Shown here: in pieces, positions 5,471 to 32,516 of the stretch
How positions within the stretch are numbered: the first letter of the stretch is position 1
Layout: each line of letters starts with the position of its first letter
Origin: an uncultured Dehalococcoidia bacterium
GTDB lineage: Bacteria; Chloroflexota; Dehalococcoidia; Lucifugimonadales; JADFKI01
NCBI GenBank assembly: GCA_964595285.1
Contig: CAZQPS010000016.1
Location: forward strand, 3,612 to 67,611
Direction of reading: 5' to 3'
Length of the DNA stretch: 64,000 nt
The notes under the pieces: generated by a model
What the model saw: only the letters and a program-made list of their open reading frames with translations
Told to the model about the DNA's origin: nothing
The model's database searches: none
Program-made: the position numbers and the translations under genes

Positions 5471-5709
5471 ACATGCTGAACGAAGCACCATCTATAATTA
5501 AGACCAGTCCTTGTGGAATCTGTAAGATATCGGATCAAGCCGTTGTTGAAAAAATAAAGGTCTGTTATACTAGGCCCGTCGTTCGTTAGATGTTGTACTA
5601 GTATGCCTAAAAGCCTGTATCAGCTTGTCCTCAGGCCGTGGGTAGAACTGCTCATCAGAATTAACGCTCGGCAGAAGAAATTGAAGGGATTAAGAAAGGA
5701 GGTGGGCCT

Positions 5710-6579: not shown

Positions 6580-6582
6580 TAA

Positions 6583-7062
6583 ATGCCCGGAAAAACACAA
6601 GTTCAAACTACCATTAACGGCGAATCCGTCGAGTTTCTGTGTGAGCCAAGGCAAAGTCTCTTGGAATGCTTACGAGATGTTATAGGTCTCACTGGTACTA
6701 AGGAAGGATGCAACGATGGAAATTGCGGTGCATGCACAGTGGAGATGGATGGCCGGATCGTGACCTCTTGTTTGGTTCTTGGAGTAGAGGCGGAAGGTAA
6801 AGAGATTACGACTATTGAAGGAATTGCAGATGGAAGTGAATTGCATCCAGTTCAGCAAGCATTTCTAGAAAACGCAGCTCTGCAGTGCGGCATTTGTACT
6901 CCAGGGTTTATTGTTTCATCAAAGTCTTTACTAGAAAATATCCCCAATCCCAGTGAGCATCAAATAAGGTTCTGGCTCGCCAACAATTTATGTCGGTGTA
7001 CAGGCTACGATAAGATAGTTCGTGCAGTGCAAGACGCTGCCGTAAAGATGCAGGAGGCCTAG
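6583..7062 (+). CDS. (2Fe-2S)-binding small subunit of a molybdenum hydroxylase (CoxS-like)
   Basis: 159 aa. Two [2Fe-2S] cysteine clusters: CNDGNCGACTV...C and QCGICTPG...CRCTGY. Confidence 0.92.
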   Translation: MPGKTQVQTTINGESVEFLCEPRQSLLECLRDVIGLTGTKEGCNDGNCGACTVEMDGRIVTSCLVLGVEAEGKEITTIEGIADGSELHPVQQAFLENAALQCGICTPGFIVSSKSLLENIPNPSEHQIRFWLANNLCRCTGYDKIVRAVQDAAVKMQEA

Positions 7063-7065
7063 AGA

Positions 7066-9411: not shown

Positions 9412-9678
9412 ATGGCAACAGTTTTTATACCATCTCTAATGCAGAATCTTACTAACGGAGAGCACCTCGTAGAAGTTGACGGGACTAACGTTAGAAGAGT
9501 TATTGAGAACCTCGAAAAGGCATTTCCAGGTATTAAAGAAAGGTTAGTAGATGACGACCGGATTAAACCGAATATTTCGGTCGCCGTGGATGGTGAAGTA
9601 AGTCCTTTAGGAATGCTTGAGAAAGTTGCTGAAAATAGCGAGGTTCATTTTTTACCGGCAATAGGTGGTGGGTATTGA
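9412..9678 (+). CDS. MoaD/ThiS/CysO-like ubiquitin-fold sulfur-carrier protein with C-terminal ...AIGGGY
   Basis: 88 aa. The pattern IPSLMQNLTNGEHLVEVDG...FPGIKERLVDD...ISVAVDGE...EVHFLPAIGGGY parallels CysO/MoaD-type carriers, which normally end in GG. Confidence 0.75.
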   Translation: MATVFIPSLMQNLTNGEHLVEVDGTNVRRVIENLEKAFPGIKERLVDDDRIKPNISVAVDGEVSPLGMLEKVAENSEVHFLPAIGGGY

Positions 9679-9720
9679 GTAGTGTCGTTTAAAAAATGTT
9701 AACTAATAAGAGGGATTTTA

Positions 9721-9758
9721 AAAAAGGCCGACTGCTGTATGAAAGCATCGGCCTTTTT
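9721..9758. terminator. GC-cored hairpin flanked by an A-run and a T-run (bidirectional-looking intrinsic terminator)
   Basis: AAAAAGGCCGA(C)TGC - tgtatgaaa - GCATCGGCCTTTTT, about 43 nt after the sulfur-carrier gene stop. Confidence 0.7.
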
Positions 9759-9797
9759 AATTGGATTTAAAAAAGTTGATTGTAAAAGGTATGACAG

Positions 9798-10730
9798 GTG
9801 AATAATATGACTGCTAAAGATATAAAAGGGGTGATTGTTCCTATATTGACTCCCTTGAATGATGACGAATCAGTAGATACAGGGTCGCTCCGTCGTCTAG
9901 TTAATTATCTTATCGAAAATGGTGTCCATGGAATATGGGTCTCCGGAACAACTGGTGAGTTTGCTAATCTCACAGACAGAGCAAGGTTAGTTAGTACGGA
10001 AATTGTTGTAGATGAGGTGGCAGGTAGGGTGCCGGTTATCGGCAATGTTTCGGGTGGCAGTACGCAATTGTCGATAAATTTGGCTCTAGAAACGCGCGAA
10101 TTAGGACTTGATGGTATAGCGGTAACTCCGCCATATTACTATCCGAACGCGCAAGACGAGCTTCTAGATCATTATAGATATATTCAAAGTCGCGTGGGTA
10201 TGCCACTGTGGGTTTATAACATACCGCAAACAGTCAAAACTGCAGTGGCTCCTACAACTGTTGCGACACTGGCTAGTGAGGGTGCAGTCGTAGGAATCAA
10301 GGATAGCTCTGGTGCAGGAGAGCTTCTGGCAGAACTCAACGTCCTTTGTGAGCAAGGTGGTCTATCATTACTTAGATTTTTAGGAACCGCTTTTAGGATT
10401 ACGACTGCCGGGTCTGTGGGAGTGCATGGAGTGATACCTGGGGGAGCAAATTTAATTCCCAGAATAGCAAGTCAAGCGTGGGAAGCAGGCGTTGCTGGGG
10501 ACTCCAATATGATTAAAGACTGCAATGCCAAGATTATTGCCATGCAGAAATTACCCAAATTGGCACAGGGTGGAGGGCCTAACGCGGCAAGCTTTGCTGG
10601 TATGAAATCGGCTCTGAAAATACTAGGTGTTATTGATAATGACACAATGTCCCGACCATTGAGGGCTTTTTCTGAAGATGAGAAGAAAAATATTCCTCCG
10701 ATCTTGGAAGAACTAGGATTACTGAATTAG
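9798..10730 (+). CDS. dihydrodipicolinate synthase / N-acetylneuraminate lyase family (class I aldolase)
   Basis: 310 aa. Motifs GTTGEF, YYPNAQDELLDHY, WVYNIPQ and the Schiff-base lysine context GIKDSSG. GTG start in the track; ATG at 9807 is possible. Confidence 0.88.
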   Translation: MNNMTAKDIKGVIVPILTPLNDDESVDTGSLRRLVNYLIENGVHGIWVSGTTGEFANLTDRARLVSTEIVVDEVAGRVPVIGNVSGGSTQLSINLALETRELGLDGIAVTPPYYYPNAQDELLDHYRYIQSRVGMPLWVYNIPQTVKTAVAPTTVATLASEGAVVGIKDSSGAGELLAELNVLCEQGGLSLLRFLGTAFRITTAGSVGVHGVIPGGANLIPRIASQAWEAGVAGDSNMIKDCNAKIIAMQKLPKLAQGGGPNAASFAGMKSALKILGVIDNDTMSRPLRAFSEDEKKNIPPILEELGLLN

Positions 10731-10776
10731 TGGCTCTCAGATCTTCTTTTAGTTTATTTACTAACTCTCGATTATA

Positions 10777-11637
10777 ATGGTGGGGTCTTATATGGCGAAT
10801 CCTCTCAAACGCTGGCAAGTGCTCAGAGACGCCAGAATTGCCTATGTTGATTGGGGCGAAAACGGTCCTACCATTTTGCTATTGCATGGTGATATGCGGA
10901 CGGGGCGTAGTTGGGATGCGGTAGCAAGGTCGCTAAGAGCTATGTTTCATGTGATTTCTGTAGATGCTAGAGGCCATGGAGATAGTGAGTGGTCTGATCA
11001 TGGATACAGATTTGATGAGCGGGTCAAAGATCTTGCTGCGTTTTGTATAGCTCTGGGTTTGAAAAATATAGTTGGAGTAGGCCATTCGACAGGCGGAGTA
11101 GTTATGGCTCTATGTGCTGCGCAATACCCTACTATATTTAAAAGATTAGCACTGTTGGAACCAATGATCGTTGTAGACGAGAAGTTCCAGAGTGCAATGA
11201 TAAAGAGAAGTGAATTTTCTAGAACTACATGGAAGGACCGAGAGGAATTATTTATATTCCTTAAAAACCATGCCGGAGCCGGGTTTTGGCGAGAAGATGT
11301 TATTCAAGATGTTGTACAGCACGAATCATATTTCAGAAAAGATGGTTTGCTAGATATGAAATGGTCACCAAACAGTTTTAGAGAAACAGAGCGGGATGGA
11401 GATTATGTAGACTTGAAGCCCATCTTTCGTGATTTAAATATTCCTATATTGCTTGTACGAGGGAGTGCGGAGCAAAATACGTTTGAGAATTTGCACTACG
11501 TGCCTGAAGATATGCCTAATGTTTCTAGGTGTACGATAAGAAATACAGGCCATAATATGTACATGGAAAAGCCTGAGTCAGTGGCACAGCTCCTGATAAA
11601 ATTCAATGATAGTCAGTCCATTCCAACCTGCCTTTAG
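10777..11637 (+). CDS. alpha/beta-fold hydrolase
   Basis: 286 aa. Motifs LLLHGDMRTGRSW and VDARGHGDSEW, nucleophile elbow GVGHSTGG, C-terminal GHNMYMEKPE. ATG at 10792, preceded by GGTGGGG, may be the real start. Confidence 0.85.
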   Translation: MVGSYMANPLKRWQVLRDARIAYVDWGENGPTILLLHGDMRTGRSWDAVARSLRAMFHVISVDARGHGDSEWSDHGYRFDERVKDLAAFCIALGLKNIVGVGHSTGGVVMALCAAQYPTIFKRLALLEPMIVVDEKFQSAMIKRSEFSRTTWKDREELFIFLKNHAGAGFWREDVIQDVVQHESYFRKDGLLDMKWSPNSFRETERDGDYVDLKPIFRDLNIPILLVRGSAEQNTFENLHYVPEDMPNVSRCTIRNTGHNMYMEKPESVAQLLIKFNDSQSIPTCL

Positions 11638-11784
11638 CCTATCGTTCACTTGATTTTGTGTTGATAATGTATAACATATGGCCGAAGAACATTAAGACAT
11701 GATTGTGTGGTGTCCATTGTAGGCTGGGGAAATGAGCGTGCAATGAACGTGAAACTTTAAAAGTTTTAGACGAGGATTAGACAT

Positions 11785-13194
11785 ATGTCACGAGAAGAAA
11801 TAGATCTGATTGCTCACCTCATGAGAAGAGCTGGGTTTGGAGCTTCATGGGATGAACTGAAAGTGTTGGAAGAAAATGGATATGATGCGACTCTTGCAGC
11901 GCTTCTTGATTTTCCAACGGTGAACGTCAGAATGGATGAAAGTCTCGTTCGCCGTTATCACACCGACAGTTCGGCTATGATGGGGCCATCTGGTAGTCCC
12001 ATGAGCTGGCTTTACGGCATGGTATCTACTTCTGCTCCACTGCAAGAAAAAATGGCGCTATTTTGGCACGGCGTTTTCGCCACTGCGACTAGCAAAATGC
12101 AGATGGGGAAAACGGTATTTGATCAGATTAAGATGTTTAGGCAGTATGGAATGGGTGATTTCCCCACGCTTCTAACTAGGTTGTCTATGAATCCGGCAAT
12201 GGTTTATTGGCTCGATAATCATGATAATCATAAAGGGGCAATTAACGAAAATTTCGGAAGAGAACTATTAGAACTATTTTCCATGGGAGTCGGCAACTAT
12301 ACAGAACAAGATGTCAAAGAGAGTGCGAGGGCTTTCACGGGCTATACTCTTCAAGATTTAAACTATTTTGTAGTTCGGAATGAGAGGTGCTCGATCTGGC
12401 CATATGGACGGACTACATTGGGATTCTCATACGATGATGAAGATAACGACAAAGGCGAGAAAGAATTTCTTGGTCATTGTGGCAATCACAATGGTGAAGA
12501 TATAATCAAAATCATTTGTCAGCAACCTGCAACTGCAAGATTCATAGCGAGACATTTATATAATTTCTTTGTGGCAGATGAACCACTGGTACCCCAATGG
12601 CCCTATACACCTCCAAAAGATCCCAGGGCCATTGACTTACTGGTGGATGCCTACTACGAGAGTGATTACAATATTGGCCATATGGTTTCGATGTTATTTA
12701 GTTCCCAGTTCTTCAAATCCAGGGAATGTTGGAATTCAAAAGTTAAGAGCCCTGCGGAGCTTGCGGTTGGTGTATTAAGACTGACCAATGAGTTTTCTCA
12801 TCCGCGGAGAGAGATGTTTGATGTAAGCAGGCAGATTGCGTTTATGGGTCAGGATTTGATGAATCCACCCAGCGTAGAAGGCTGGCATGGTGGCCAAGAC
12901 TGGATTGAATCTGGAACATTGATGGAAAGAATAAATTTTGCATCTGAACATATCGGTAATCTGGATGCCCCAGGTGTAAAAACTATTATTGGCGCTATCA
13001 ATACCAATGACCCAGAGCAGTTGATAGATTCTTGCCTGGATCATCTCGGTGCCATATCTATCAATGAAGATACACGAGCCAGTATTTTGAGATTTGTCGA
13101 TAAATCCAATTCTGATAAAAGAGTTTTAGATGAAGAATTGTCATTGAATGTCCTCAGGATGATAGTTTCCAGTCAAGAATTCCAGAGAGTTTAA
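11785..13194 (+). CDS. DUF1800 domain-containing protein
   Basis: 469 aa. Family hallmarks: HLMRRAGFGASWDEL at the N-terminus and LFWHGVFAT...NPAMVYWLDNHDNHKGAINENFGRELLELFSMGVGNYTEQDVKESARAFTGY. No signal peptide seen. Confidence 0.85.
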   Translation: MSREEIDLIAHLMRRAGFGASWDELKVLEENGYDATLAALLDFPTVNVRMDESLVRRYHTDSSAMMGPSGSPMSWLYGMVSTSAPLQEKMALFWHGVFATATSKMQMGKTVFDQIKMFRQYGMGDFPTLLTRLSMNPAMVYWLDNHDNHKGAINENFGRELLELFSMGVGNYTEQDVKESARAFTGYTLQDLNYFVVRNERCSIWPYGRTTLGFSYDDEDNDKGEKEFLGHCGNHNGEDIIKIICQQPATARFIARHLYNFFVADEPLVPQWPYTPPKDPRAIDLLVDAYYESDYNIGHMVSMLFSSQFFKSRECWNSKVKSPAELAVGVLRLTNEFSHPRREMFDVSRQIAFMGQDLMNPPSVEGWHGGQDWIESGTLMERINFASEHIGNLDAPGVKTIIGAINTNDPEQLIDSCLDHLGAISINEDTRASILRFVDKSNSDKRVLDEELSLNVLRMIVSSQEFQRV

Positions 13195-13196
13195 TT

Positions 13197-14219
13197 ATGG
13201 TTTCTAAAATAGATAGCACGACTACTGGGCTGACCTACAGCCACACGGTTGGACTGGCGACAATGATAGGGAGAGGATTTTATTTCCCGGTAGATCTGGC
13301 TATCACATCTGAGGAAAACATGCTGGTCCTAAGTAGGTCGTTGGAAATATTTGCGTATGGAACAAGAGTGACCGTGTGTAATGCTGACAGTGAATTTTTT
13401 GGTACCTTCGGAAATCCTGGTACAGAAAACGGACAATTCATGTGGCCCAGTGGTATAGCTCTGGATAGTGAAGACAATGTCTATGTTGTTGATGATCATC
13501 TTCATAGGGTTGTTGTTTTTGGTCGGGATGGGGAACCCTTGAAGACATGGGGTATTAAGGGAAATGCCCAGGGAGAATTATATGGCCCTTGCTCCATTGC
13601 ATTTGACAGTAGCGACAATGCATATGTCAGCGATCACCTGAATCACAGGATTCAAAAATTTACCCGAGATGGAGAGTTCATCTTGGAATTTGGTCGCAAA
13701 GGTGATCTCCCTGGAGAATTGGATCTCCCTTGGGGTGTTTCTGCACAGCATGGAAGTATCTGGATTGCAGATTGGGGTAACGATAGGGTACAAGAATTTT
13801 CAGAAACTGGAGAATTCATTAAGAGTATCGGGACTTCGGGTAGGAGAGACGGCGAGATGATTCAACCGTCCTCTGTTGCGGTCGATACTGACGGTAATGT
13901 ATATGTATGCGACTGGGGCAATGAACGGTTGCAGATATTTGATGCTAATGGAAATTTCATAACAAAAGAACGGGGAAGAGCGACAGATTCCAAATGGGCT
14001 AAAGATTATCTGGAAAGCAACGTTGAAGAAGCGGAAGCTAGGAAAACAGCTCAATTAGAGCCTGATGTTTCATGGTTAGTTGATGATCCGCATGAAGAGT
14101 CTTCTTATGTAGAAAAGTACTTTTGGGGACCGACGGCTGTGTTGCTAGATAAATCCGGTCGTATATATGTAAATGAAAGTAACAGGCATAGGATTCAAAT
14201 ATTCAATCGTAACTTCTAG
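13197..14219 (+). CDS. NHL-repeat beta-propeller protein
   Basis: 340 aa. Starts 2 nt after the DUF1800 stop. About six repeats of the type G.F..P.GIA.DS..NVYV.D..N.RIQ.F. No signal peptide seen. Confidence 0.85.
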   Translation: MVSKIDSTTTGLTYSHTVGLATMIGRGFYFPVDLAITSEENMLVLSRSLEIFAYGTRVTVCNADSEFFGTFGNPGTENGQFMWPSGIALDSEDNVYVVDDHLHRVVVFGRDGEPLKTWGIKGNAQGELYGPCSIAFDSSDNAYVSDHLNHRIQKFTRDGEFILEFGRKGDLPGELDLPWGVSAQHGSIWIADWGNDRVQEFSETGEFIKSIGTSGRRDGEMIQPSSVAVDTDGNVYVCDWGNERLQIFDANGNFITKERGRATDSKWAKDYLESNVEEAEARKTAQLEPDVSWLVDDPHEESSYVEKYFWGPTAVLLDKSGRIYVNESNRHRIQIFNRNF

Positions 14220-20979: not shown

Positions 20980-22164
20980 CTATTCAGCTGGCATTTGTGC
21001 TTTGCTTCGACTTGTAAATGCAGGCATCACGCCTTCAGAGAACCATTTTAGTTGTTCAGTAATGATTTTTTGAGGTGTCCCCACCGGTTGGGCTACATTT
21101 ATTCGGTCAAGGCCGGGATAATGTGCTTCTAATTCTTGGATTTGTTCAATTATTAATTCTGGTGGGCCAGTTAAAAATCCGCCCCCATTCACGGCTCCCT
21201 CAATTCTTGGCAGGTCCGCGTTTGGAGCTTTTTGGGGGTCAGCCATTATTTCTATTTGCTCTTCACTAAGAGCTCTGACTAATCTCAAAGGGGCAAATAT
21301 TTTTAGATTCTCTTCAAAAAGATGAGCTGCTTCTTTGATGCCTTGTTCTCTTGAGTCGGCCAAATAGACGTGAATGCCAATACTTAGATTTTCTCCCAAT
21401 TCTAGTTGACGACCAGCACGCTCGTTGGCTTCCTTGTAGGCGATCATAATATTGTCCATTGCTCCACCGTCAGCAGAGCCTCCTCCAATTATGCCTTTAA
21501 TGCCATATTTTGCCATGAAATCTAAGGCTCTTCTTGACCCACTTTGGATAGGCTGCCAACATTCAACAGGATTAACTGGTCTAGGCACCAATGTTATTTC
21601 TTCAAGGTCATATCCTCTATAGGGGATATTAGGCGGTATATTGTAGAAATTTCCTTTGTGGGAAAATGATTCACTGTCAAAAGACTTGAATATGATTTCT
21701 ACTTGTTCTTCAAAGAGGCTTCTATTCGCTTCTTGATCAAATAACGGAGCCCCGAAGGACTCTACTTCTCGGCTGTGGTACCCACGCCCAACACCGAATT
21801 TAACTCTGCCTCCTGTGAGGTAGTCCACGGTAGCAAAGTCTTCTGCCAACCGGAGAGGATGCCACATTGGTACTACATTAAAACCGCATCCAAGGTGTAT
21901 ATTTTTTGTCTTGTGTGCCAGATGTAAGGCGGCCATTACGACATTCGGGATACATTCATATCCTTCAGGTTGAAAGTGGTGTTCTGCAACCCAGAAGGTG
22001 TCGTATCCTGAACTGTCCATGGTTTGGGCGATTGCTTCCATTTTGTCAAAAGCTGTAACGAGTTGGCTGTTAGAAAAACGCCGATCGTTAACAGGCACAC
22101 CACCATATCCGACGTTTTCCAAGTCTATGTGGCCTGCAAACAAGCTATCGAACTTAGTAATCAT
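20980..22164 (-). CDS. LLM-class (luciferase-like) flavin-dependent monooxygenase
   Basis: Motifs FWVAEHHFQPEGYE, NVVPMWHPLRLAEDFA and GVGRGYHSREVESFG. The track ORF starts at TTG 22185; an ATG 7 codons in (22164) is preceded by GGAGG. Confidence 0.9.
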   Translation of the reverse strand: MITKFDSLFAGHIDLENVGYGGVPVNDRRFSNSQLVTAFDKMEAIAQTMDSSGYDTFWVAEHHFQPEGYECIPNVVMAALHLAHKTKNIHLGCGFNVVPMWHPLRLAEDFATVDYLTGGRVKFGVGRGYHSREVESFGAPLFDQEANRSLFEEQVEIIFKSFDSESFSHKGNFYNIPPNIPYRGYDLEEITLVPRPVNPVECWQPIQSGSRRALDFMAKYGIKGIIGGGSADGGAMDNIMIAYKEANERAGRQLELGENLSIGIHVYLADSREQGIKEAAHLFEENLKIFAPLRLVRALSEEQIEIMADPQKAPNADLPRIEGAVNGGGFLTGPPELIIEQIQELEAHYPGLDRINVAQPVGTPQKIITEQLKWFSEGVMPAFTSRSKAQMPAE

Positions 22165-22309
22165 GATGAAGCCTCCATATTCCAAGGTCTAGTGTGCACG
22201 GGCTTAATTGTAAAAAGGTATGCGAGGAAGTCAAGCTGCCTCTTGTGGACTTTCACGGTGACAGAGGTTAATCATCACGTCAGAAATGTAGGATGAAAAT
22301 CAAAAGATT

Positions 22310-23434
22310 TTATTCTACGATAAAGTCTTTCAGCCTGTCTTCGTCGATTTCTAATCCTAATCCCGGTCTATCGGGTAAGGTAATGGTGCCCTGGATTGGC
22401 AGGATAGGTTGTTTATATAACAGAGCAGCCGGCTCAGCTGGCCCCGTGAATTCTTCAGAAAACTCATGGGGTCTCACCGCGTTCGTAATAGTACTGTATA
22501 GGTGCAGGCTAGCCGTTGAATTGGCGCCTGCACTAGGGCTGTGGGGCATTATAATCTTGTTGTTTGCAACCGCCATTTCATAAACGCGGCTCATCGCTGA
22601 CAAGCCTCCTACATTGAGAATGTCCGGTTGTAGGATGTCAGGGTTTGCCAGATCAAGGAGATCCCTGAACCGCCAAGGGGATATTTCTTGCTCTCCAGTA
22701 GATACCGCACAATCTAGGGCGTCTACTACTTGACGCAGTCCTCTAAGGTCGTATTGTGGTAAGGGTTCTTCAAAATGCGCTACACCCAAGGATTCGAGCT
22801 TTCGTCCTTGCTCAATTGCTGTAGGGACGGAATATCCATTGTTGGCATCAAAGCTAAGGGGAACATCATCGGGCAGCCATTCTCTGCATGTTTTGAAGAT
22901 GTTAAAATCTTTTTGAGGGTTGGCGTCTTGCCGATAATCACGCCAATCCATACGCACTTTAAAGGCTCTGAAGCCTTTTTCGTATCCTTCCTGTATTTCT
23001 TCTAACATCTCGGAGGGTTCTTTTCTCCATCCGTTGCCTCTACTCCAATATAAAGGGATTTTTATACGATGAGCCCCACCGAGGAGTGAGTAGAGTGGAA
23101 GCCCCGCAAACTTAGCTGTTATGTCCCAGCAGGCTATATCTATAGCTCCAACAATTTGAGAGGGGAATCTTGTTGCTTGCTGACTTGTGCCTAAGGACAA
23201 GATTTCGGTTATTTGTTTAGGTTGCAAGGGATTCATGCCGATTATAAGTGGCTTGATCAAGTCATCTAGATAGGCGCGGAATACACCTAGATTTCTTGAT
23301 CCTTCAGCTATACCTGTAATACCTTCGTCGGTGAAAACTCGCACTAATAGCTTCCCTGAACGCCCAACAAAAGTTTGGCTATTTGGTCCGCCCGGAGACT
23401 TTAGTTCGTTGACCTTTATGTCAGTAATTTTCAT
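22310..23434 (-). CDS. enolase-superfamily enzyme (mandelate racemase/muconate lactonizing family)
   Basis: 374 aa. MKITDIKV...VFTDEGITGIAEG, KVRMDW, FDANNGY, FEEP and TGEQE, with metal ligands in the expected order. Confidence 0.9.
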   Translation of the reverse strand: MKITDIKVNELKSPGGPNSQTFVGRSGKLLVRVFTDEGITGIAEGSRNLGVFRAYLDDLIKPLIIGMNPLQPKQITEILSLGTSQQATRFPSQIVGAIDIACWDITAKFAGLPLYSLLGGAHRIKIPLYWSRGNGWRKEPSEMLEEIQEGYEKGFRAFKVRMDWRDYRQDANPQKDFNIFKTCREWLPDDVPLSFDANNGYSVPTAIEQGRKLESLGVAHFEEPLPQYDLRGLRQVVDALDCAVSTGEQEISPWRFRDLLDLANPDILQPDILNVGGLSAMSRVYEMAVANNKIIMPHSPSAGANSTASLHLYSTITNAVRPHEFSEEFTGPAEPAALLYKQPILPIQGTITLPDRPGLGLEIDEDRLKDFIVE

Positions 23435-23467
23435 TGTCTATTCCTCAGTGCATAAGTGTTTTTGGGA

Positions 23468-24331
23468 TTAGTTTAAGTATTTGTTGATCATTTCGCCAAA
23501 ATCTTTGCGCCTAGTAACTTTTGCCATCAATTCGGGAGAAGCAACATTGTTTGCAAGTTCTGATGGTGGTATTCCTTCACGAAGTGCCTTCAAGGTATCA
23601 TAAATTCCTTGTATAGCTGCTGAGAATGGAAGATGTCCTTGCAGTGCTACCCTGACTCCATTCTGGGCTAGGAACTGTCGGTCGTTGAGATCATCAGTAA
23701 TACTGCCTAGCATTAGAGGAATGTTAATTGCTTCGCTGACCGTTGTGATTTCTTCACGCCGTGTTGCTCCAGCTAGAAATAGAGCATCTACACCAGCTTC
23801 TTCATATGCTTTTGCACGTTTGACTGTTTCTTCTATCCCGCTGATGGCTAGAGCGCTTGTTCTACCTGCGATCGTTAGGGTTGTATCTTGTCTTGCGTCT
23901 ACTGCCGCTTTCATTTTGCCCACGCCTTCTTCGAGCGTGATAAGTGCTGCCCCGTTGTCTGTTCCATAATTTATTGGCAATAATGTGTCTTCGATAGTTA
24001 AACAGGAAACTCCAGCTGTTTCCAGTTCTTCTACAGTCCTCCTAACATTAAGGGCATTGCCGTATCCATGGTCTGCGTCGACCATTAGTGGCAGATTTGC
24101 AGCGCGGCAAATACGTTGAATTTGTTGGGCGAATTCTGTCTGTGTAATGAGTATTAGATCCGGATCTCCCAGAATTGTCATAGATGCTATAGAACCGGCG
24201 AACATGCCTATTTCATAGCCGAGATTTTCTGCTATTCGTACTGAAATTGGATCATGCACAGAAGCTGGAGATATGCATATTTTTTGCGATAGTAGTTCTC
24301 TGAATTTTGTTCTACGCTGAGTAAGTTCCAC
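23468..24331 (-). CDS. isocitrate lyase / PEP mutase family protein (methylisocitrate lyase / oxaloacetate decarboxylase-like)
   Basis: 287 aa. Motifs PLMVDADHGYGNALNVRRTVEELETAGVSCLTIEDT and AGRTSAL. Confidence 0.85.
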   Translation of the reverse strand: MELTQRRTKFRELLSQKICISPASVHDPISVRIAENLGYEIGMFAGSIASMTILGDPDLILITQTEFAQQIQRICRAANLPLMVDADHGYGNALNVRRTVEELETAGVSCLTIEDTLLPINYGTDNGAALITLEEGVGKMKAAVDARQDTTLTIAGRTSALAISGIEETVKRAKAYEEAGVDALFLAGATRREEITTVSEAINIPLMLGSITDDLNDRQFLAQNGVRVALQGHLPFSAAIQGIYDTLKALREGIPPSELANNVASPELMAKVTRRKDFGEMINKYLN

Positions 24332-24339
24332 AATTTCTC

Positions 24340-25098
24340 CTAAAGTATTTCTTTGGGCATGAAAAATTCGTGATGACTTTCGTCACCGTATCCGGGTACG
24401 AATGTGGGTAATAGACCTTTGGATTTTAGTGCTGCCTGAACTATAGTCTTATTGAAAAGGCTTACGTCAGGGTCTTCCAAGAAATCATTAACTGGCATCC
24501 ATAGTGCTTCATCTAGTTCCTCTTCCTGCATCGTAATTTCAGTGGTTAAAGGAGACAGTCTTGTTACAAAATAAATATCAGATTTTCCGTATCGGTACTC
24601 GTGCCAGTGTCTGAAGCAAACCAGCGCTTCAAATTCCGTTTCTACACCTGTTTCTTCAAAAACCTCTCGTACTACGGCATCAGCCAAATGCTCTCCCGCA
24701 ATAAGGGCTCCTCCGGGGAGTTTATAGGCAGGGCTCCTAGAACGCCTATGCCTTTCTGAGACTACTAGTAATTCATCGCTTTCGGAAATGACAACTCCTC
24801 CGGCGCCTATGTAGTGGGAAGCGTATGGCGGAATAAATGCACCTTCCTCTATTCTCTTTGTTAGCATGAGGTAGTCCTCTGTAGCATGATGATAATTAAA
24901 TCCAAGTTTAATGGCTTCAGATACCAGTGCAGCCTTCTCAGTCGGTAGCTCTAGCCATGCAACTTTAAAACCTTGGGCGGACCATCCTTGCAGAGAATTT
25001 CCCAAATGTTTAGAAAAGTTCATTGGGTCCGAATCTAATGATTGAGGATTAATTATGATTCCGCCGAAAGGGTTAGTTGAGTATTGAATTTGTTCCAT
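24340..25098 (-). CDS. NUDIX hydrolase with an N-terminal accessory domain
   Basis: 252 aa. Perfect Nudix box GALIAGEHLADAVVREVFEETGV. The start overlaps the 3' end of the upstream LLM gene by 26 nt. Confidence 0.88.
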   Translation of the reverse strand: MEQIQYSTNPFGGIIINPQSLDSDPMNFSKHLGNSLQGWSAQGFKVAWLELPTEKAALVSEAIKLGFNYHHATEDYLMLTKRIEEGAFIPPYASHYIGAGGVVISESDELLVVSERHRRSRSPAYKLPGGALIAGEHLADAVVREVFEETGVETEFEALVCFRHWHEYRYGKSDIYFVTRLSPLTTEITMQEEELDEALWMPVNDFLEDPDVSLFNKTIVQAALKSKGLLPTFVPGYGDESHHEFFMPKEIL

Positions 25099-26245
25099 CT
25101 GACTCTCGTTCTGTAAAGTGAGGCATTACTTTGTCAGCAAAAATTTCTAATTGAGACATAAATTCTGATTTTGGCATACCCTCTGCCCAATGCAGGATTA
25201 TATTTTCAAGCCCAGGATATTTCTGTTCTAACTCTAACAGGAATTCTACGAATTGTTCTGGAGTGCCACAGATCCATGCTTTTTGATCAATTCCATCCTC
25301 TATTCTTGGGGTGCGAGCTGGAGCGCCTGGTGTCCCCCAGGGTCGCCCTTGTTCGTCTGCATATCTTACGAATCCGAAGGGTGCGAACCATTTGTAACGT
25401 TCATCATGGTATGGCCTGAGGCTTTCCCGTGCGGTTTCTGCGTTTTCCGCTAGGTAAAACCCCAGTTCTAAGGCTAAGCCTTCCCCGAGTGTCTGGTTAC
25501 GGTTGTATTTGGCACAGGCCTCTCTATATTTATCAAAAATTTGTTCGACTAGTAATTCCCCTGTCAAGCCAACTACGCCTTTAATTCCATTTTCTGCTAT
25601 AAAATCAATAGTACTGCCGCTGACTATCGGCTGCCACATTTCAACTGGAAGATGTTTTGGCCTGGGAACCAAGGTGACTTCATCAAGTTGATATCCTCGA
25701 TAGTCTACTTCTGGGGGAATTTGATATCGTTTGCCCTTGTGTGAGAAGGACTCTTGGTTAAAAGCCTTTAGGATAATTTCCATCTGCTCTTCGAATTGTT
25801 CCCTGTTAGCAACGTTGTCTATAACTGGGGAGCCGAAGGATTCGACCTCCCTTGAGTGGTAGCCTCTTCCGATACCAAATATGATGCGGCCGTTAGTGAG
25901 AATATCTGCCATAGAGTAATCTTCAGCGAGTCTGACTGGATGCCACATCGGAACTATGTTGAAGGCGCATCCAAACTTCAGTCTTTTAGTATGAGCCGCC
26001 ATATGCGTGCTCAGAAGGATGATATTAGGAATTGTTTCATATCCCTCATGCTGAAAGTGATGCTCAGCCATCCATAATGCGTAGAAGCCACGGTTGTCCA
26101 TAAAAGATGCCACTTCAGTGGCTGTTGAGAGGCTTTGCATTAATTGGTTATTCGAGTATCTGCGCTGATTGGCTGGAGTGCCCTCAGCTCCTACATTGTC
26201 AAGATCAATGTTTCCAACGTACAAGACTGAGAAATTTTTAATCAT
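25073..26245 (-). CDS. LLM-class (luciferase-like) flavin-dependent monooxygenase, paralogue of 20980-22164
   Basis: 390 aa. Motifs LWMAEHHFQHEGYE, NIVPMWHPVRLAEDYS and GIGRGYHSREVESFG. Collinear with the other LLM gene along the N-terminal ~210 aa that I compared by eye. Confidence 0.9.
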   Translation of the reverse strand: MIKNFSVLYVGNIDLDNVGAEGTPANQRRYSNNQLMQSLSTATEVASFMDNRGFYALWMAEHHFQHEGYETIPNIILLSTHMAAHTKRLKFGCAFNIVPMWHPVRLAEDYSMADILTNGRIIFGIGRGYHSREVESFGSPVIDNVANREQFEEQMEIILKAFNQESFSHKGKRYQIPPEVDYRGYQLDEVTLVPRPKHLPVEMWQPIVSGSTIDFIAENGIKGVVGLTGELLVEQIFDKYREACAKYNRNQTLGEGLALELGFYLAENAETARESLRPYHDERYKWFAPFGFVRYADEQGRPWGTPGAPARTPRIEDGIDQKAWICGTPEQFVEFLLELEQKYPGLENIILHWAEGMPKSEFMSQLEIFADKVMPHFTERESDGTNSILN

Positions 26246-29631: not shown

Positions 29632-30840
29632 TTATAGTTTTACATCTAGTATGTTTGCAACTGTGTCAATATCTTTGTCACCTCGTCCGCTTAACCCGAC
29701 TAGTATAATTTTGTCATGTTCCAATGTTGGTGCGAGTTGAGAAACGTGGTAAATGGCATGTGCAGGCTCCAAGGCTGGTATTATTCCTTCTGTACTGCAT
29801 AGAAGTTGAAATCCTATCAGGGCTTCTTCATCTGACACGCTAACGTAACTGGCTCGGCTATTGTCTTTGAGCCAGCTATGTACGGGGCCTACTCCGGGAT
29901 AGTCAAGACCTGCAGATATGCTGTGAGTTTCCATAACTTGGCCATCTGAAGTTTGCAAAAGATAGGACATGCTTCCATGTAAAACGCCAATCTCGCCAGC
30001 AACCAATGTGGAGGAATGCTTACCAGTTGAAATTCCGTCGCCTCCTGCTTCGACACCTATTAATTTTACGCTGTCATCGGCGATAAATTCGTAGAACAAT
30101 CCCATTGCGTTACTACCTCCTCCCACACATGCCATTGCATAATCAGGAAGTCTGCCAATAGCTTCTTTAAGTTGTCGTTTTGCCTCTTCCCCAATTATTT
30201 TTTGAAAGTCTCTTACGATCATTGGATAGGGATGCGGTCCAACTACACTACCAATTAGATAGTGAGTAGTTTCAACATTAGTTACCCAGTCACGAATACA
30301 TTCGTTTATAGCATCTTTTAAAGTACGACTTCCGGAATCAACCGGTCTTACTTCCGCACCTAAAAGACGCATTCGAAATACGTTTAAGGCTTGTCTTTTT
30401 ATGTCCTCTTCGCCCATATAAACAATGCACTCTAGCCCTAGCATTGCACAAACCGTAGCTGTTGCAACACCATGTTGTCCCGCACCGGTTTCAGCTATGA
30501 TTCGGTTTTTGCCCATTCGTTTAGCCAGTAGCGCTTGCCCTAAAGCATTATTGATTTTATGTGCCCCTGTGTGAGCTAAGTCTTCTCTCTTAAGGAATAT
30601 TTGAGCCCCGCCCAACTCTTTTGTGAGGTTTTCGGCGTAGTAAAGGGATGTAGGCCTGCCAATATATTCCTTTCCAACCTTTGCGAGAATTGACTGGAAA
30701 TTAAGGTCGTGCTTAGCCTGTTCGTATTCATTTTCCAATTCTTCGATCGCACTCATTAGAGTTTCAGGCACAAAACGGCCGCCAAAATCGCCGAAGCGAC
30801 CCTTAGTATCTGGGAGTATATTTTTTGAATTCTTTGCCAT
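29632..30840 (-). CDS. trpB: tryptophan synthase beta subunit
   Basis: Motifs [25 protein letters not shown] (PLP lysine) and GGGSNAMG. Start placed at MAKNSKN (M8 of the track ORF). Confidence 0.93.
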
Positions 30841-31162
30841 TTTCCCCTCAGCAATTAGCACATAATTCTTTTGTTATTACTCAACAACTTTGCGCTGTTC
30901 CAATAATCTGTTTGTATCTGGCTCGTTGCATTGAGGAATTGGCACAGCTATAAGTTTGACCATAAGCTCTATATGTGATTTTAAACGAACGTTATGTTAA
31001 ATTCTATCATCCTCCTGCCGGTAATATGAAGGCAACCTAATTTGAATATTGCTGAATGGCAATCTCAATGACGGTTGAATGCAATGCCTTAGTCCCTCTA
31101 TAATCGCTTTGGTACTACCTATGGAATTTGGATGAATTACTTGTCATTGAAGGAGTCTTGAG

Positions 31163-31714
31163 ATGCTTGAGGGAACTATTAGTCGATTGCAGTTAGTGGA
31201 TCCTACCACGCACCCAGTTATTCCTGAATTTAGTGGTGCTCCTAGGGTGAATGACATGGCCAACGCAAGGGTTGGTATTATCGACGACAGCAAAGTAAAT
31301 GCCAAAGAATATCTACATGAATTAATTTCCTTGCTTAATGAACGATATGGTGTTTCGAATGTGGAATATCATGCGAAGCCTTCCGCATCAAGACCAGTTG
31401 ACCCAGATGTCATAAAAAAAATGGCCAAGGATTGCGATTATATAATCGCGGGAATTGGAGACTGAGGGTCCTGCAGCGCGTGCAGTGTGCACGATGGAAT
31501 ACATGCCGAGAACGCTGGTATCCCTTCCGTAACGATATGTACAGACTCCTTTGTACAAACTTCTAAAAGTATGGCTGCGATGTGGGGTTCCCCTGACTAT
31601 CCTGTAATCTTCACCCCTCATCCAATTGCGGGGCTAACTGCTGAGCAACTTAACGAAGATGCCAAGAACATCCTTGGGTCAGTTGTTGAAATCCTCACAG
31701 GTAGATCTGTGTAG
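31163..31714 (+). CDS. UGSC-motif selenoprotein candidate (in-frame TGA at 31463-31465 read as Sec), 183 aa
   Basis: Track ORFs 31163..31465 and 31487..31714 share a frame (offset 324 nt). The only stop between them is one TGA. Read-through gives ...DYIIAGIGD-U-GSCSACSVHDGIHAENAGIPSVTICTD.... The downstream ORF has no SD at usable spacing, and hairpins follow the TGA. AAGGAG lies upstream of ATG 31163. Confidence 0.7.
31466..31500 (+). promoter_or_regulatory. candidate bacterial SECIS hairpin(s) immediately 3' of the in-frame UGA
   Basis: Two mutually exclusive stems. The first is CUGCA-gcgcg-UGCAG (31471-31485). The second is CGUGCA-GUG-UGCACG (31479-31493), whose G/U-containing apical loop lies about 20 nt after the UGA. 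Confidence 0.45.
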
Positions 31715-31772: not shown

Positions 31773-32516
31773 TTAAGATTGTAGGCTGTTAGACAGGAGT
31801 TTCGTAAGAAGCCAGAGTACAAATGAGGCTACGAGCGAAATGACAGCGATCAGTAATGTTGCCTCGAAGAAGAAGCCTTGCGGAAATATAGCTATTAAAT
31901 AGTCATGTCGCGGATCTAGTTGCCAAAAATCGTTACTAAAACTGACAATGTGAAATACAAGGAATAAACGATTAAAGCTGAACGCTACTAGTAGCCCGGT
32001 AAAGAGTATCGATATGAAAGTTATTAATGTGCCTATTCTCAGAAAATTAGTTAATTTTACCCGATATTTTAGGCCTCCAAAATAAAGTGCAACTCCGGCG
32101 AAACTCAGAATATATACGGCACTTATTTCGTTAACCAGATATAGTAGCCTTACGAGATGTTTAACGTCTTCCATGTGAATGATTTCTTTTTCGTTAAATA
32201 GACTTTCCTTTAATACGCCGTTGGTAAATGTCTTTATTACGAGGTCTTTTTCTTTGTTATTAAAATACTTTCTAATGCGTTCTCCGATTACTCTCAACTC
32301 ATCATTATGGATTCCCGTGTACTCTGCAATTTGATGTCTTTCAAACGCATAGTTGTAGAAAGTCGGGAAATTAATTACGAATCGCGCACTTGAACTGATC
32401 AACAACAGGGGTACAAATGCTACAAGGAGAAAGGAACTTACTCTCTTAACTGAAATCATTGCAATATCATACCATTCAACATAACGGTAGCCAATGATGC
32501 GGCGCATAAAGCGCAA
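31773..32516 (-). CDS. integral membrane protein, TIGR01906/DUF1461-like
   Basis: 247 aa in the track (TTG start). The real start is probably MISVKRV at 32459. Four or more TM segments, with motifs EKEIIHMEDVKHL and FPQGFF as I recall them for DUF1461. Confidence 0.65.
   Translation of the reverse strand: MRFMRRIIGYRYVEWYDIAMISVKRVSSFLLVAFVPLLLISSSARFVINFPTFYNYAFERHQIAEYTGIHNDELRVIGERIRKYFNNKEKDLVIKTFTNGVLKESLFNEKEIIHMEDVKHLVRLLYLVNEISAVYILSFAGVALYFGGLKYRVKLTNFLRIGTLITFISILFTGLLVAFSFNRLFLVFHIVSFSNDFWQLDPRHDYLIAIFPQGFFFEATLLIAVISLVASFVLWLLTKLLSNSLQS

What the first reader, a model, noticed from the sequence alone, without database searches (positions are those of the whole stretch)
31163..31714. 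In-frame UGA fuses two ORFs into a 183-aa U-G-S-C selenoprotein candidate
ORFs 31163..31465 and 31487..31714 are in the same reading frame (offset 324 = 108 codons). The only interruption is a single TGA at 31463-31465. The seven codons in between read GSCSACS, so the continuous product is ...KDCDYIIAGIGD-U-GSCSACSVHDGIHAENAGIPSVTICTDSF....

The downstream piece would have to start at GTG with no Shine-Dalgarno at useful spacing, whereas the upstream ATG has AAGGAG. U-x-x-C is a classic redox-pair geometry. I also recall a PGAP/NCBIfam entry named 'UGSC family (seleno)protein' of about 190 aa, which would fit. That recollection needs checking.

Standard gene callers would emit two fragments or miss the protein.
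Basis: partly seen in the sequence, partly recalled or inferred. Interest (0 to 1): 0.78.

Follow-up and report, generated by a model that had tools for sequence, protein, structure and literature searches.

The report
UGSC-family selenoprotein gene, split by callers
This is one gene for a 183-residue selenocysteine-containing protein of the already-described "UGSC" family, whose in-frame UGA makes gene callers cut it in two; it is a correct but ordinary find in a family whose function is still unknown.

Summary
Window 31163-31714 (+) is a single 183-codon gene with an in-frame TGA at 31463-31465.

- **Family:** with U replaced by C it scores above the curated cut-offs of NCBIfam NF041046 "UGSC family (seleno)protein" (149.9 vs 125) and Pfam PF24696 (189.9 vs 25). 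The matches span both halves.
- **Conservation:** all 23 Chloroflexota/Dehalococcoidia orthologues keep TGA at this codon. 56 homologues from Actinomycetota and other phyla have TGC or TGT there.
- **Translation past the UGA:** the downstream part evolves as coding sequence in the same frame.
- **SECIS:** the 11 codons after the UGA are frozen at synonymous sites (p = 2.6e-5). Cys-form genes show no such freeze (p = 0.33). The frozen stretch forms a hairpin that meets the published bacterial SECIS criteria. Its loop G-U lies at the same distance from UGA as in E. coli fdhF.
- **Not shown:** no selA, selB, selD or tRNA-Sec lies in the 64 kb, so the machinery is untested.

The family has been known since 2007-2008 and its function remains unknown.

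Three additions:
- The fold is flavodoxin/Rossmann-like, not thioredoxin-like.
- There is weak but systematic similarity to the PrdB/GrdB selenoproteins.
- A large unannotated partner family accompanies all 57 Cys-form loci but is absent from this window and from the Sec-form Chloroflexota loci.

The parts
31075..31104 (+). Promoter-like site (TTGAAT, 18-nt spacer, TATAAT; 10 of 12 matches) upstream of the gene
   Evidence: This is a consensus match only. Three such sites were found in the region against 2.5 expected, so it is not significant on its own.
31150..31155 (+). Shine-Dalgarno AAGGAG, 7 nt upstream of the ATG
   Evidence: Read directly from the sequence.
31163..31714 (+). Complete UGSC-family selenoprotein gene: 183 codons plus TAG stop, with Sec at codon 101
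   Evidence: The UGSC HMM hits the two stop-to-stop segments, 31151-31462 and 31466-31711, as HMM positions 3-96 and 98-177. Codon-position divergence downstream of the UGA is 0.18/0.13/0.51, matching 0.175/0.087/0.455 upstream.
31463..31465 (+). In-frame TGA, the predicted selenocysteine codon (U101)
   Evidence: TGA in 24 of 24 Chloroflexota orthologues, counting the window gene. TGC/TGT in 56 Cys-form homologues at the aligned position.
31463..31483 (+). Redox motif U101-G-S-C104-S-A-C107
   Evidence: U/C101, S103, C104, S105 and A106 are invariant or nearly so across the 70-sequence family alignment. C107 is specific to the Sec-form clade; the Actinomycetota Cys-form has S or A there.
31466..31498 (+). 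Codons 102-112, frozen at synonymous sites. Codons 106-110 (GCG TGC AGT GTG CAC) are nucleotide-invariant in 24 distinct genes.
   Evidence: codon entropy 0.37 here against 1.14 elsewhere, Mann-Whitney p = 2.6e-5. Control in Cys-form genes: 0.88 against 0.93, p = 0.33.
31477..31496 (+). Bacterial SECIS-type hairpin. It spans nt 15-34 counted from the U of UGA, with a 6-bp upper stem (CGUGCA/UGCACG) and a further 2 bp below a bulged A. An 11-nt spacer separates it from the UGA.
   Evidence: 97.2% of cells pair across 18 distinct sequences. Sliding the 3' partners by -1 or +1 drops pairing to 2.8% and 12.5%. Energy is -7.6 to -7.8 kcal/mol. The one-sided changes C15-to-U and C33-to-U keep wobble pairs.
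31485..31487 (+). Apical loop G23-U24-G25 of the hairpin. Its last base is the first base of the GTG (31487-31489) that gene callers use as the start of the 75-aa fragment.
   Evidence: One search aligns G23-U24 with the loop G-U of E. coli fdhF at the same distance from UGA. One search verified the fdhF sequence used.
29632..30861 (-). Upstream divergent neighbour: tryptophan synthase beta (trpB). Conserved synteny, not a functional partner.
   Evidence: TIGR00263 628.8 bits against a cut-off of 392. Present in 18 of 24 Sec-form loci.
31773..32516 (-). Downstream convergent neighbour: a Lit-family (lipoprotein intramolecular transacylase) protein. Conserved synteny.
   Evidence: PF07314 113.4 bits. 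Present in 15 of 24 Sec-form loci.

Best explanation
Window 31163-31714 is one monocistronic gene for a 183-residue selenoprotein of the UGSC family, in a marine Dehalococcoidia-type Chloroflexota genome.

**Recoding.** Translation starts at ATG 31163, which has a good Shine-Dalgarno. At UGA 31463 the ribosome inserts selenocysteine instead of terminating. An mRNA hairpin inside the coding sequence directs this. It starts 11 nt after the UGA and carries G-U in its apical loop, as in E. coli fdhF. It would recruit SelB-GTP-Sec-tRNA(Sec). The hairpin, its conservation and the in-frame translation downstream are shown. SelB binding and actual Sec insertion are inferred.

**Protein.** The protein has a five-stranded flavodoxin/Rossmann-like alpha/beta fold. 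Sec101 sits at the junction of strand 3 and helix 3, in the motif G-D-U-G-S-C-S-A-C.

**Chemistry (inferred).** Sec101 is the nucleophile of a redox cycle. It is resolved by Cys104 as a selenenylsulfide, and Cys107 may act as a relay. The motif and position match the U-x-x-C selenoproteins PrdB and GrdB of the D-proline and glycine reductases, to which UGSC proteins show weak but systematic sequence similarity.

**Still unknown.** The physiological substrate is not known. Most other lineages encode a conserved 340-370-aa partner protein next to the UGSC gene. This lineage has none nearby.
For: **Gene structure and family**
- Structure as described.
- NF041046 149.9 bits against a cut-off of 125, and PF24696 189.9 bits over residues 11-179.
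- RefSeq uses the name 'UGSC family (seleno)protein' for homologues.

**Sec/Cys pairing**
- 23 of 23 Chloroflexota orthologues at 56-70% identity have TGA. 56 homologues have TGC/TGT at the same aligned position.

**Downstream part is translated**
- The C-terminal half is 71% identical to the orthologues on average, against 60% for the N-terminal half.
- Substitutions downstream show the same 1/2/3 codon-position pattern as upstream.

**Nucleotide-level constraint specific to UGA genes**
- Codon entropy is 0.37 in codons 102-112 against 1.14 elsewhere, p = 2.6e-5.
- Cys-form genes show no such effect, p = 0.33.

**Hairpin**
- It meets the four published bSECIS criteria from the PMC13188914 Fig. 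2 legend. The loop is 3 nt, the stem is 6+2 bp, G-U opens the loop, the loop lies 19 nt from UGA, and energy is -7.6 to -7.8 kcal/mol.
- 97.2% of cells pair.
- It shares the core UGCA-G(G)U-N-UGCAC with fdhF, with G23-U24 in register. The fdhF sequence was verified in 5419 of 5426 E. coli genomes.
- An independent Sec-form paralogue in a Streptosporangiaceae MAG carries the same hairpin.

**No genome-wide UGA reassignment**
- 8 of the window's 53 long ORFs end in TGA, and coding density is 88% under the standard code.

**Fold and remote similarity**
- AlphaFold model of the 58%-identical P0001: pLDDT 87.6, pTM 0.81, strand-helix order b1-a1-...-b5-a5.
- Foldseek returns only flavodoxin-like or Rossmann-like matches.
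- 54 of 70 family members hit TIGR04483 PrdB at E <= 0.01, best 3.7e-5.
- In P0070 the PrdB alignment is ungapped across the Cys site.
- The window protein aligns residues 87-160 to GrdB model positions 333-400.
- GrdB and PrdB are listed as UxxC selenoproteins.
Against: - No tRNA-Sec, selA, selB or selD lies in the 64-kb window or in the 12-kb loci of 23 relatives. The decoding machinery is therefore not shown for this organism.
- No Rfam family matches the hairpin.
- The hairpin is short and only marginally stable. The 68-nt and 121-nt regions do not fold better than shuffles, with z-scores of -0.34 and -0.67.
- GC-rich Cys-form genes can form comparable hairpins at the same place, so hairpin presence alone does not discriminate.
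- The stem is almost invariant, so there is essentially no covariation support.
- The PrdB/GrdB similarity is far below family cut-offs, about 14-21 bits against 300-602. I could not view it residue by residue.
- The redox mechanism and any substrate are inferred. No experimental work on this family was found.
Confidence: 0.9

Rival explanations
1. There are two separate genes, or one split gene. Translation stops at TGA 31463 to give a 100-aa protein, and a second 75-aa protein starts at GTG 31487. This is how public gene callers annotate it.
For: Gene calls on near-identical contigs list 100-aa and 75-aa products. About 70 database homologues are exactly 100 aa long.
Against: - The seven codons between TGA and GTG (GSCSACS) are invariant in all orthologues and hold the family's defining motif.
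- No Shine-Dalgarno precedes the GTG.
- The GTG lies inside the conserved hairpin.
- Cys-form homologues are single chains of 176-190 aa spanning both halves.
- The family HMM runs continuously from position 96 to 98 across the junction.
Confidence: 0.02
2. The gene is a pseudogene, or the TGA is a sequencing error: a nonsense mutation in a former Cys codon (TGC/TGT to TGA).
For: TGA is one substitution away from TGC or TGT. Cys-form homologues exist.
Against: - The same TGA occurs in 23 other species-level genomes and in independent metagenome assemblies at 99.7-99.8% nucleotide identity.
- The region downstream stays under purifying selection, with third-position-dominated substitutions.
- Synonymous sites next to the TGA are frozen. 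A decaying gene would not show this.
Confidence: 0.01
3. The UGA is read through, but with an amino acid other than Sec. Candidates are Cys or Trp by near-cognate decoding, or Cys-tRNA(Sec) when selenium is scarce. Alternatively, readthrough is partial and the 100-aa truncation is also a real product.
For: The Sec machinery was not found in the window. Open-ocean selenium is scarce. A sister lineage (P0001, P0002) has replaced the codon with CGA, so position 101 can change.
Against: The fdhF-like hairpin has G-U at the canonical distance and is under strong nucleotide-level selection only in UGA-bearing genes. That is the signature of SelB-dependent decoding. UGA serves as an ordinary stop elsewhere in the window. 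The family is a recognised selenoprotein family.
Confidence: 0.05

Closest known systems
UGSC family (seleno)protein: NCBIfam NF041046, Pfam PF24696, the 'UGSC-containing protein' of Zhang & Gladyshev
   Same: The window protein scores above both curated cut-offs. It has the same length (about 180-190 aa), the same G-D-[U/C]-G-S-C motif at the same position, and the same Sec/Cys dichotomy. Like the family as published, it is marine, and its function is unknown.
   Different: Nothing essential differs. This Chloroflexota clade adds a third cysteine (U-G-S-C-S-A-C) and lacks the neighbouring partner gene found beside all 57 Cys-form loci examined. The 2008 paper suggested a thioredoxin-like fold. 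The model here is flavodoxin/Rossmann-like.
PrdB and GrdB, the selenoprotein B subunits of D-proline and glycine/sarcosine/betaine reductases (TIGR04483, TIGR01917, Pfam PF07355)
   Same: Both have a U-x-x-C motif. Weak but systematic sequence similarity is centred on that motif: 54 of 70 UGSC members hit PrdB at E <= 0.01. The window protein aligns residues 87-160 to GrdB model positions 333-400. Thioredoxin-system genes occasionally lie next to UGSC genes. From my own knowledge, grd operons show the same association.
   Different: Scores are far below the family cut-offs, 14-21 bits against 300-602. UGSC is shorter and lacks the N-terminal regions of PrdB and GrdB. No pyruvoyl proprotein (PrdA or GrdE) or GrdA is encoded nearby. 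The host looks like an aerobic marine heterotroph (inference), not a Stickland fermenter.
E. coli fdhF SECIS element
   Same: It is a hairpin inside the coding sequence, starting 11 nt after the UGA. It shares the core UGCA-G(G)U-N-UGCAC, and the loop G23-U24 is in the same register.
   Different: The loop is 3 nt (GUG) rather than 4 (GGUC). The bulge is an A on the 3' side rather than the 5' bulged U17. There is no long lower stem, and stability is lower: about -7.7 kcal/mol for the 20-nt hairpin against -14.9 for the 45-nt fdhF element.

Membership tests
UGSC family (seleno)protein (NF041046 / PF24696) | Whole-protein score at or above the curated cut-offs | tested here: met
   NF041046 149.9 bits against 125. 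PF24696 189.9 bits against 25, covering residues 11-179. Tested with U replaced by C.
UGSC family (seleno)protein (NF041046 / PF24696) | [U/C]-G-S-C motif at the conserved position after G-x-G-D | tested here: met
   The window reads GIGD-U-GSC. The motif aligns with GDCGSC of 56 Cys-form homologues.
UGSC family (seleno)protein (NF041046 / PF24696) | Single chain of about 175-190 residues spanning both halves | tested here: met
   183 residues. Full-length homologues are 176-206 aa. The HMM runs continuously across the junction.
Bacterial selenoprotein gene (SelB/SECIS-dependent UGA recoding) | In-frame UGA aligned with Cys in homologues and conserved in orthologues | tested here: met
   TGA in 23 of 23 orthologues, TGC/TGT in 56 homologues.
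Bacterial selenoprotein gene (SelB/SECIS-dependent UGA recoding) | bSECIS hairpin meeting the consensus in the PMC13188914 Fig. 2 legend: 3-9-nt loop, 4-16-bp stem, G in the first two loop positions, 16-37 nt from UGA, MFE <= -7.5 kcal/mol | tested here: met
   3-nt loop GUG, 6(+2)-bp stem, 19 nt from UGA, -7.6 to -7.8 kcal/mol (marginal). Supported by the synonymous-site freeze specific to UGA genes. Caveat: Cys-form genes also form hairpins there, so the criteria alone do not discriminate.
Bacterial selenoprotein gene (SelB/SECIS-dependent UGA recoding) | Genome encodes selA, selB, selD and tRNA-Sec (selC) | not testable with these tools
   None are present in the 64-kb window or in the flanks of 23 orthologous loci.
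Bacterial selenoprotein gene (SelB/SECIS-dependent UGA recoding) | Selenium physically present in the protein | not testable with these tools
   This needs 75Se labelling or mass spectrometry.
PrdB/GrdB selenoprotein B family (TIGR04483, TIGR01917, TIGR01918, PF07355) | Score at or above the curated cut-off | tested here: not met
   TIGR01917 17.7 bits against 602. TIGR01918 13.6 against 65. PrdB at most about 21 against 300. PF07355 was not reported. The protein is a remote relative at most, not a member.
PrdB/GrdB selenoprotein B family (TIGR04483, TIGR01917, TIGR01918, PF07355) | Encoded with a pyruvoyl proprotein subunit (PrdA or GrdE) | tested here: not met
   The neighbours are trpB, Lit, a nucleoside hydrolase, a DAO-family oxidoreductase and MazG. 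No such gene was seen in the 64 kb.
Thioredoxin-fold oxidoreductases (suggested for UGSC in PMC2398784) | Thioredoxin fold | tested here: not met
   The model (pLDDT 87.6) alternates strands and helices, b1-a1-b2-a2-b3-a3-b4-a4-b5-a5. The top 50 Foldseek PDB matches are lumazine synthase, the NagZ C-terminal domain, flavodoxin-like, TIR and GTPase domains. None is a thioredoxin. The model is of the 58%-identical P0001, not the window protein itself.

The most novel reading that the evidence does not exclude
UGSC proteins may be the Sec- or Cys-bearing catalytic subunit of an unrecognised two-component reductase distantly related to the proline and glycine reductases.

- **Partner:** the second component would be the 340-370-aa 'partner X' family. 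It has at least 7,938 database clusters, no Pfam or NCBIfam model and no structural neighbour in the PDB.
- **Co-occurrence:** partner X is encoded next to UGSC in all 57 Cys-form loci, in haloarchaea, in Roseovarius and in Arthrobacter. In a few cases trxA or trxB lies alongside.
- **This lineage:** the marine Chloroflexota Sec-form clade in the window would be a derived version. It either works without that partner or with one encoded elsewhere. Swapping Cys for Sec and adding Cys107 may compensate for the missing partner.
Probability: 0.25. Interest if true: 0.6.

Novelty: already known. Interest (0 to 1): 0.25.

Why it matters
For the window itself, this is an annotation correction: two "hypothetical" fragments are one selenoprotein.

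The same error affects this whole Chloroflexota clade in public databases. About 70 clusters are stored as 100-aa truncations, including NCBI MAG entries named "hypothetical protein".

More broadly, UGSC is one of the most abundant selenoprotein families in ocean metagenomes: 255 Sec forms against 21 Cys forms in GOS (PMC2398784). Its function is still unknown.

Three side results give concrete handles for working out what it does:
- a flavodoxin-like rather than thioredoxin-like fold;
- systematic similarity to the PrdB/GrdB Sec site;
- an obligate-looking, unannotated partner family in Cys-form lineages.

None of this makes the window's gene itself surprising.

Tried and rejected
- **Rfam:** gathering thresholds on the whole window and E-value mode on 31400-31600 gave no SECIS or other relevant family.
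- **ARAGORN:** no tRNA-Sec in the window or in 23 orthologous loci.
- **Pfam/NCBIfam on 20 window ORFs:** no selA, selB or selD. The 469-aa plus 340-aa ORF pair at 11785-14219 looked like a possible selA/selD pair by size, but it is not one.
- **Other selenoprotein genes in the window:** an in-frame-TGA scan found none that was credible.
- **Thermodynamic test of the region:** not better than shuffles. My own bSECIS-criteria scan also fired on Cys-form genes, so I do not use hairpin presence as independent evidence.
- **Covariation:** essentially none, because the stem is invariant.
- **Functional inference from neighbours in Chloroflexota:** trpB and Lit are conserved synteny only.
- **Thioredoxin-system linkage:** present in Arthrobacter, Roseovarius and L079 but absent from the other 56 Cys-form loci. 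I treat it as suggestive only.
- **PDB sequence search with the family profile:** no significant hit.
- **Partner X:** no Pfam or NCBIfam relative even at E <= 1. No PDB structural neighbour. No UGSC fusion among the retrieved hits. The 'Unknown_1' alignment of the 2008 paper is held only as an image, so I could not check whether it is partner X.
- **Literature on Sec use in SAR202/Chloroflexota:** nothing useful.
Full report
**1. The observation**

- An ATG at 31163 is preceded by AAGGAG (31150-31155, 7-nt spacer) and opens a 100-codon ORF ending at TGA 31463-31465.
- The same frame continues for 82 more codons to TAG 31712-31714.
- The "second ORF" that mechanical ORF lists report starts at GTG 31487, seven codons (GSCSACS) after the TGA, with no Shine-Dalgarno.
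- Reading through gives 183 residues: ...KDCDYIIAGIGD-U-GSCSACSVHDGIHAENAGIPSVTICTDSF...

**2. Family membership**

I replaced U with C and scanned the protein.
- It scores 149.9 bits against NCBIfam NF041046 "UGSC family (seleno)protein", an equivalog model with a cut-off of 125.
- It scores 189.9 bits against Pfam PF24696 "UGSC" over residues 11-179 of a 172-position model, so across both halves.
- RefSeq already uses this product name for homologues in Prauserella, Arthrobacter, Roseovarius and several haloarchaea.
- The window holds only this one copy.

**3. Homologues: Sec against Cys**

A search of 5.8 billion proteins returned 79 close hits. About 70 are exactly 100 aa long, so they end where this gene's TGA is. 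A handful are full-length at 181-206 aa.

A scan of one genome per species returned 80 loci. Reading the DNA:
- All 23 Chloroflexota/Dehalococcoidia loci (56-70% identity) have TGA at the aligned codon, followed in frame by GSCSAC[S/C]VHDG.
- 56 loci from Actinomycetota, Gemmatimonadota and Dormiibacterota have TGC (54) or TGT (2), in the motif GDCGSCSAS.
- One Streptosporangiaceae MAG (L078) carries both a Cys-form gene and a second, TGA-containing paralogue.

This is the classic Sec/Cys pair signature.

**4. The downstream part is translated in frame**

- Among 24 distinct Sec-form genes, the C-terminal half is more conserved than the N-terminal half: 71% against 60% mean identity to the window protein.
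- Pairwise nucleotide divergence at codon positions 1/2/3 is 0.18/0.13/0.51 downstream of the hairpin and 0.175/0.087/0.455 upstream.
- Both regions therefore evolve as protein-coding sequence in the same frame.
- UGA is not a general sense codon here. 8 of 53 long ORFs in the window end in TGA, and coding density is 88% under the standard code.

**5. The recoding signal**

- *Frozen codons.* At conserved, degenerate codons, the codon entropy across the 24 genes is 0.37 for codons 102-112 and 1.14 elsewhere (Mann-Whitney p = 2.6e-5). Codons 106-110 (GCG TGC AGT GTG CAC) are nucleotide-invariant.
- *Control.* The same test on 56 Cys-form genes shows no effect: 0.88 against 0.93, p = 0.33. The constraint acts on the RNA and is specific to UGA-bearing genes.
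- *The hairpin.* Counting from the U of UGA, the frozen stretch pairs C17-A22 with U26-G31 around the loop G23-U24-G25. G16-C/U33 and C15-G34 extend the stem past a bulged A32. It begins 11 nt after the UGA.
- *Pairing.* Across 18 distinct sequences 97.2% of cells pair. Sliding the 3' partners by one column drops this to 2.8% or 12.5%. The few changes are one-sided and keep wobble pairs.
- *Published criteria.* The hairpin satisfies the bSECIS consensus in the PMC13188914 Fig. 2 legend. The loop is 3 nt, the stem has at least 4 bp, G then U open the loop, and the loop lies 19 nt from UGA. The energy of -7.6 to -7.8 kcal/mol meets the threshold of -7.5.
- *Comparison with fdhF.* I verified my recalled E. 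coli fdhF SECIS sequence at 100% identity in fdhF of 5419 of 5426 genomes. Aligned with it, the UGSC element shares the core UGCA-G(G)U-N-UGCAC, with the loop G23-U24 in the same register. From my own knowledge of the fdhF literature, G23 and U24 are the SelB contacts and 11 nt is the required spacing.
- *Independent occurrence.* The actinobacterial Sec-form paralogue has the same hairpin with loop GUU.

Caveats:
- The hairpin is short.
- The wider region folds no better than shuffles.
- No Rfam model matches.
- GC-rich Cys-form genes form comparable hairpins at the same place. The argument therefore rests on the selective synonymous freeze and the fdhF-like core, not on hairpin presence.

**6. 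What could not be shown**

No tRNA-Sec, selA, selB or selD lies in the window or in the flanks of the orthologues. No other selenoprotein gene is in the window. With 64 kb of a genome likely to be over 3 Mb, this says nothing either way.

**7. Source and context**

- Identical 100-aa fragments lie on open-ocean metagenome contigs, including BATS (ENA and Logan). These contigs are 99.7-99.8% identical to window 21163-41464. There the gene is called as 100-aa and 75-aa pieces, both hitting PF24696.
- The orthologues come from Dehalococcoidia/Chloroflexota MAGs.
- The neighbourhood includes luciferase-like monooxygenases, enolase-superfamily enzymes and a PEP mutase. That looks like a SAR202-type marine heterotroph, which is my inference.
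- The gene is monocistronic. It sits between a divergent trpB (TIGR00263, 628.8 bits) and a convergent Lit-family gene.
- This arrangement is conserved in 15-18 of 24 Sec-form loci. It is plain synteny and carries no functional hint.

**8. What the protein is like**

- *Fold.* An AlphaFold model of the closest full-length relative is confident: P0001, 58% identity, 69-sequence alignment, pLDDT 87.6, pTM 0.81. It shows five strand-helix units in order, b1-a1-...-b5-a5. The Sec position lies at the end of strand 3 and the start of helix 3.
- *Structural matches.* Foldseek against the PDB finds only generic flavodoxin-like or Rossmann-like domains, with TM-scores of 0.49 or less, and no thioredoxins. 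The "likely Trx-like fold" proposed in 2008 is not supported.
- *Conserved residues.* Family-invariant residues include C91, D92, G97, G99, D100, [U/C]101, S103, C104, S105, A106, D111, G112, C126, H153 and P154. By position in the model's secondary structure, 101, 104, 126 and 153 lie at the C-terminal ends of strands 3, 4 and 5. That is the usual active-site edge of such folds.
- *Clade-specific cysteine.* The Sec-form clade adds C107, giving U-x-x-C-x-x-C.

**9. Relation to PrdB and GrdB**

- The window protein weakly matches the GrdB model TIGR01917: residues 87-160 against model positions 333-400, E = 1.3e-3.
- 54 of 70 family members match the PrdB model TIGR04483 at E <= 0.01, best 3.7e-5.
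- In P0070 the match is ungapped across the Cys site, residues 80-128 against model positions 131-179.
- PrdB and GrdB are UxxC selenoproteins.
- I read this as probable remote homology of the Sec-bearing domain, not membership. Scores are an order of magnitude or more below the cut-offs, and no PrdA/GrdE-type partner is nearby.
- It motivates the proposed chemistry: Sec101 as the nucleophile, resolved by Cys104.

**10. A conserved partner, absent here**

- In every one of the 57 Cys-form loci, a protein of about 350 aa is encoded within 6 kb, mostly directly downstream on the same strand.
- The same family flanks UGSC in Arthrobacter (trxB-trxA-X-UGSC), Roseovarius (X-UGSC-trxB) and Halalkalicoccus (X-UGSC-X), with HMM scores of 215-273 bits.
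- The actinobacterial Sec-form paralogue is followed by two tandem copies.
- The family is very large: at least 7,938 clusters, which saturated the search. It has no Pfam or NCBIfam model, and every named hit is called "hypothetical protein".
- Its confident model (pLDDT 86.8, pTM 0.87) has no PDB neighbour; the best TM-score is 0.27.
- It is absent from the whole window and from all 23 Sec-form Chloroflexota loci, even at E <= 10.
- Thioredoxin-system genes are nearby only sporadically.

**11. Novelty and verdict**

The UGSC-containing protein has been in the literature since 2007 as a selenoprotein of unknown function. It was reported as one of the most abundant marine selenoprotein families in 2008, and recent reviews list it with its NCBIfam model.

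The window's gene is a straightforward member.

As a discovery it is ordinary. Its practical value is as an annotation fix for a whole clade. The side observations on fold, PrdB/GrdB similarity and partner X are leads for a family that still lacks a function.

Noticed in passing
L024-L080 (for example L028:6498-7556, L040:6464-7642); L086:3954-4994; L087:3795-4907; L088:3837-4862 and 5538-6536: A protein of about 340-370 aa ('partner X') is encoded next to UGSC in all 57 Cys-form loci and in Arthrobacter, Roseovarius and Halalkalicoccus. Conserved motifs are DGLP..P, ANAxMAGC, NGP, ENEExSPW and EHA. It has at least 7,938 database clusters, no Pfam or NCBIfam model, and a confident AlphaFold model with no PDB structural neighbour. 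It is absent from the window and from all Sec-form Chloroflexota loci.
   Followed up: yes
L085:356-934 (P0001); also P0002: A sister lineage has CGA AGC (Arg-Ser) where the others have TGA GGG (Sec-Gly), yet keeps the SECIS core nucleotides GCG TGC AGT GTG CAC GAC GG intact. This looks like a recent loss of Sec by a single T-to-C change. Whether an Arg protein is functional is unknown.
   Followed up: partly
L078:6274 (Cys-form) and L078:9389 (Sec-form), with partner X at 6249-7658, 9638-10765 and 10813-11886: One Streptosporangiaceae MAG carries a Cys-form and a Sec-form UGSC gene 3 kb apart. Each is followed by partner-X genes. The Sec-form has the same hairpin (loop GUU) and the CSACS-x-HD motif of the Chloroflexota clade, although it is only 35-40% identical to it.
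   Followed up: partly
L086:2648-3957; L087:5626-6606; L079:4216-5546: trxB and/or trxA lie next to the UGSC and partner-X genes in three unrelated organisms. From memory, grd operons show a similar association. The genes are absent from the other 56 Cys-form loci.
   Followed up: yes
window 31487-31489: The GTG that gene callers use as the start of the 75-aa fragment overlaps the hairpin. Its first base is the last loop base (G25) and its other two bases open the 3' arm. It is therefore conserved for RNA reasons, which helps explain why callers consistently pick it.
   Followed up: yes
window 5710-9336: Three consecutive + strand ORFs of 289, 159 and 756 aa. The largest matches the large, molybdenum-binding subunits of xanthine dehydrogenase, 4-hydroxybenzoyl-CoA reductase and aerobic CO dehydrogenase, all below their equivalog cut-offs. 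It also matches selenium-dependent xanthine dehydrogenase models weakly. Some members of this enzyme class use a labile selenium cofactor, which would also need SelD.
   Followed up: no
window 21163-26245 (= L081:1-5083): A cluster of luciferase-like monooxygenases (two copies), an enolase-superfamily (MR_MLE) enzyme, a PEP-mutase-family protein and a NUDIX hydrolase. This gene content resembles that described for SAR202-type marine Chloroflexota, which is my inference from memory.
   Followed up: no
window 1-64000: GC skew is positive in nearly every 4-kb bin, and cumulative skew rises steadily across the whole window. The window therefore seems to lie within one replichore, with no origin or terminus.
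   Followed up: no
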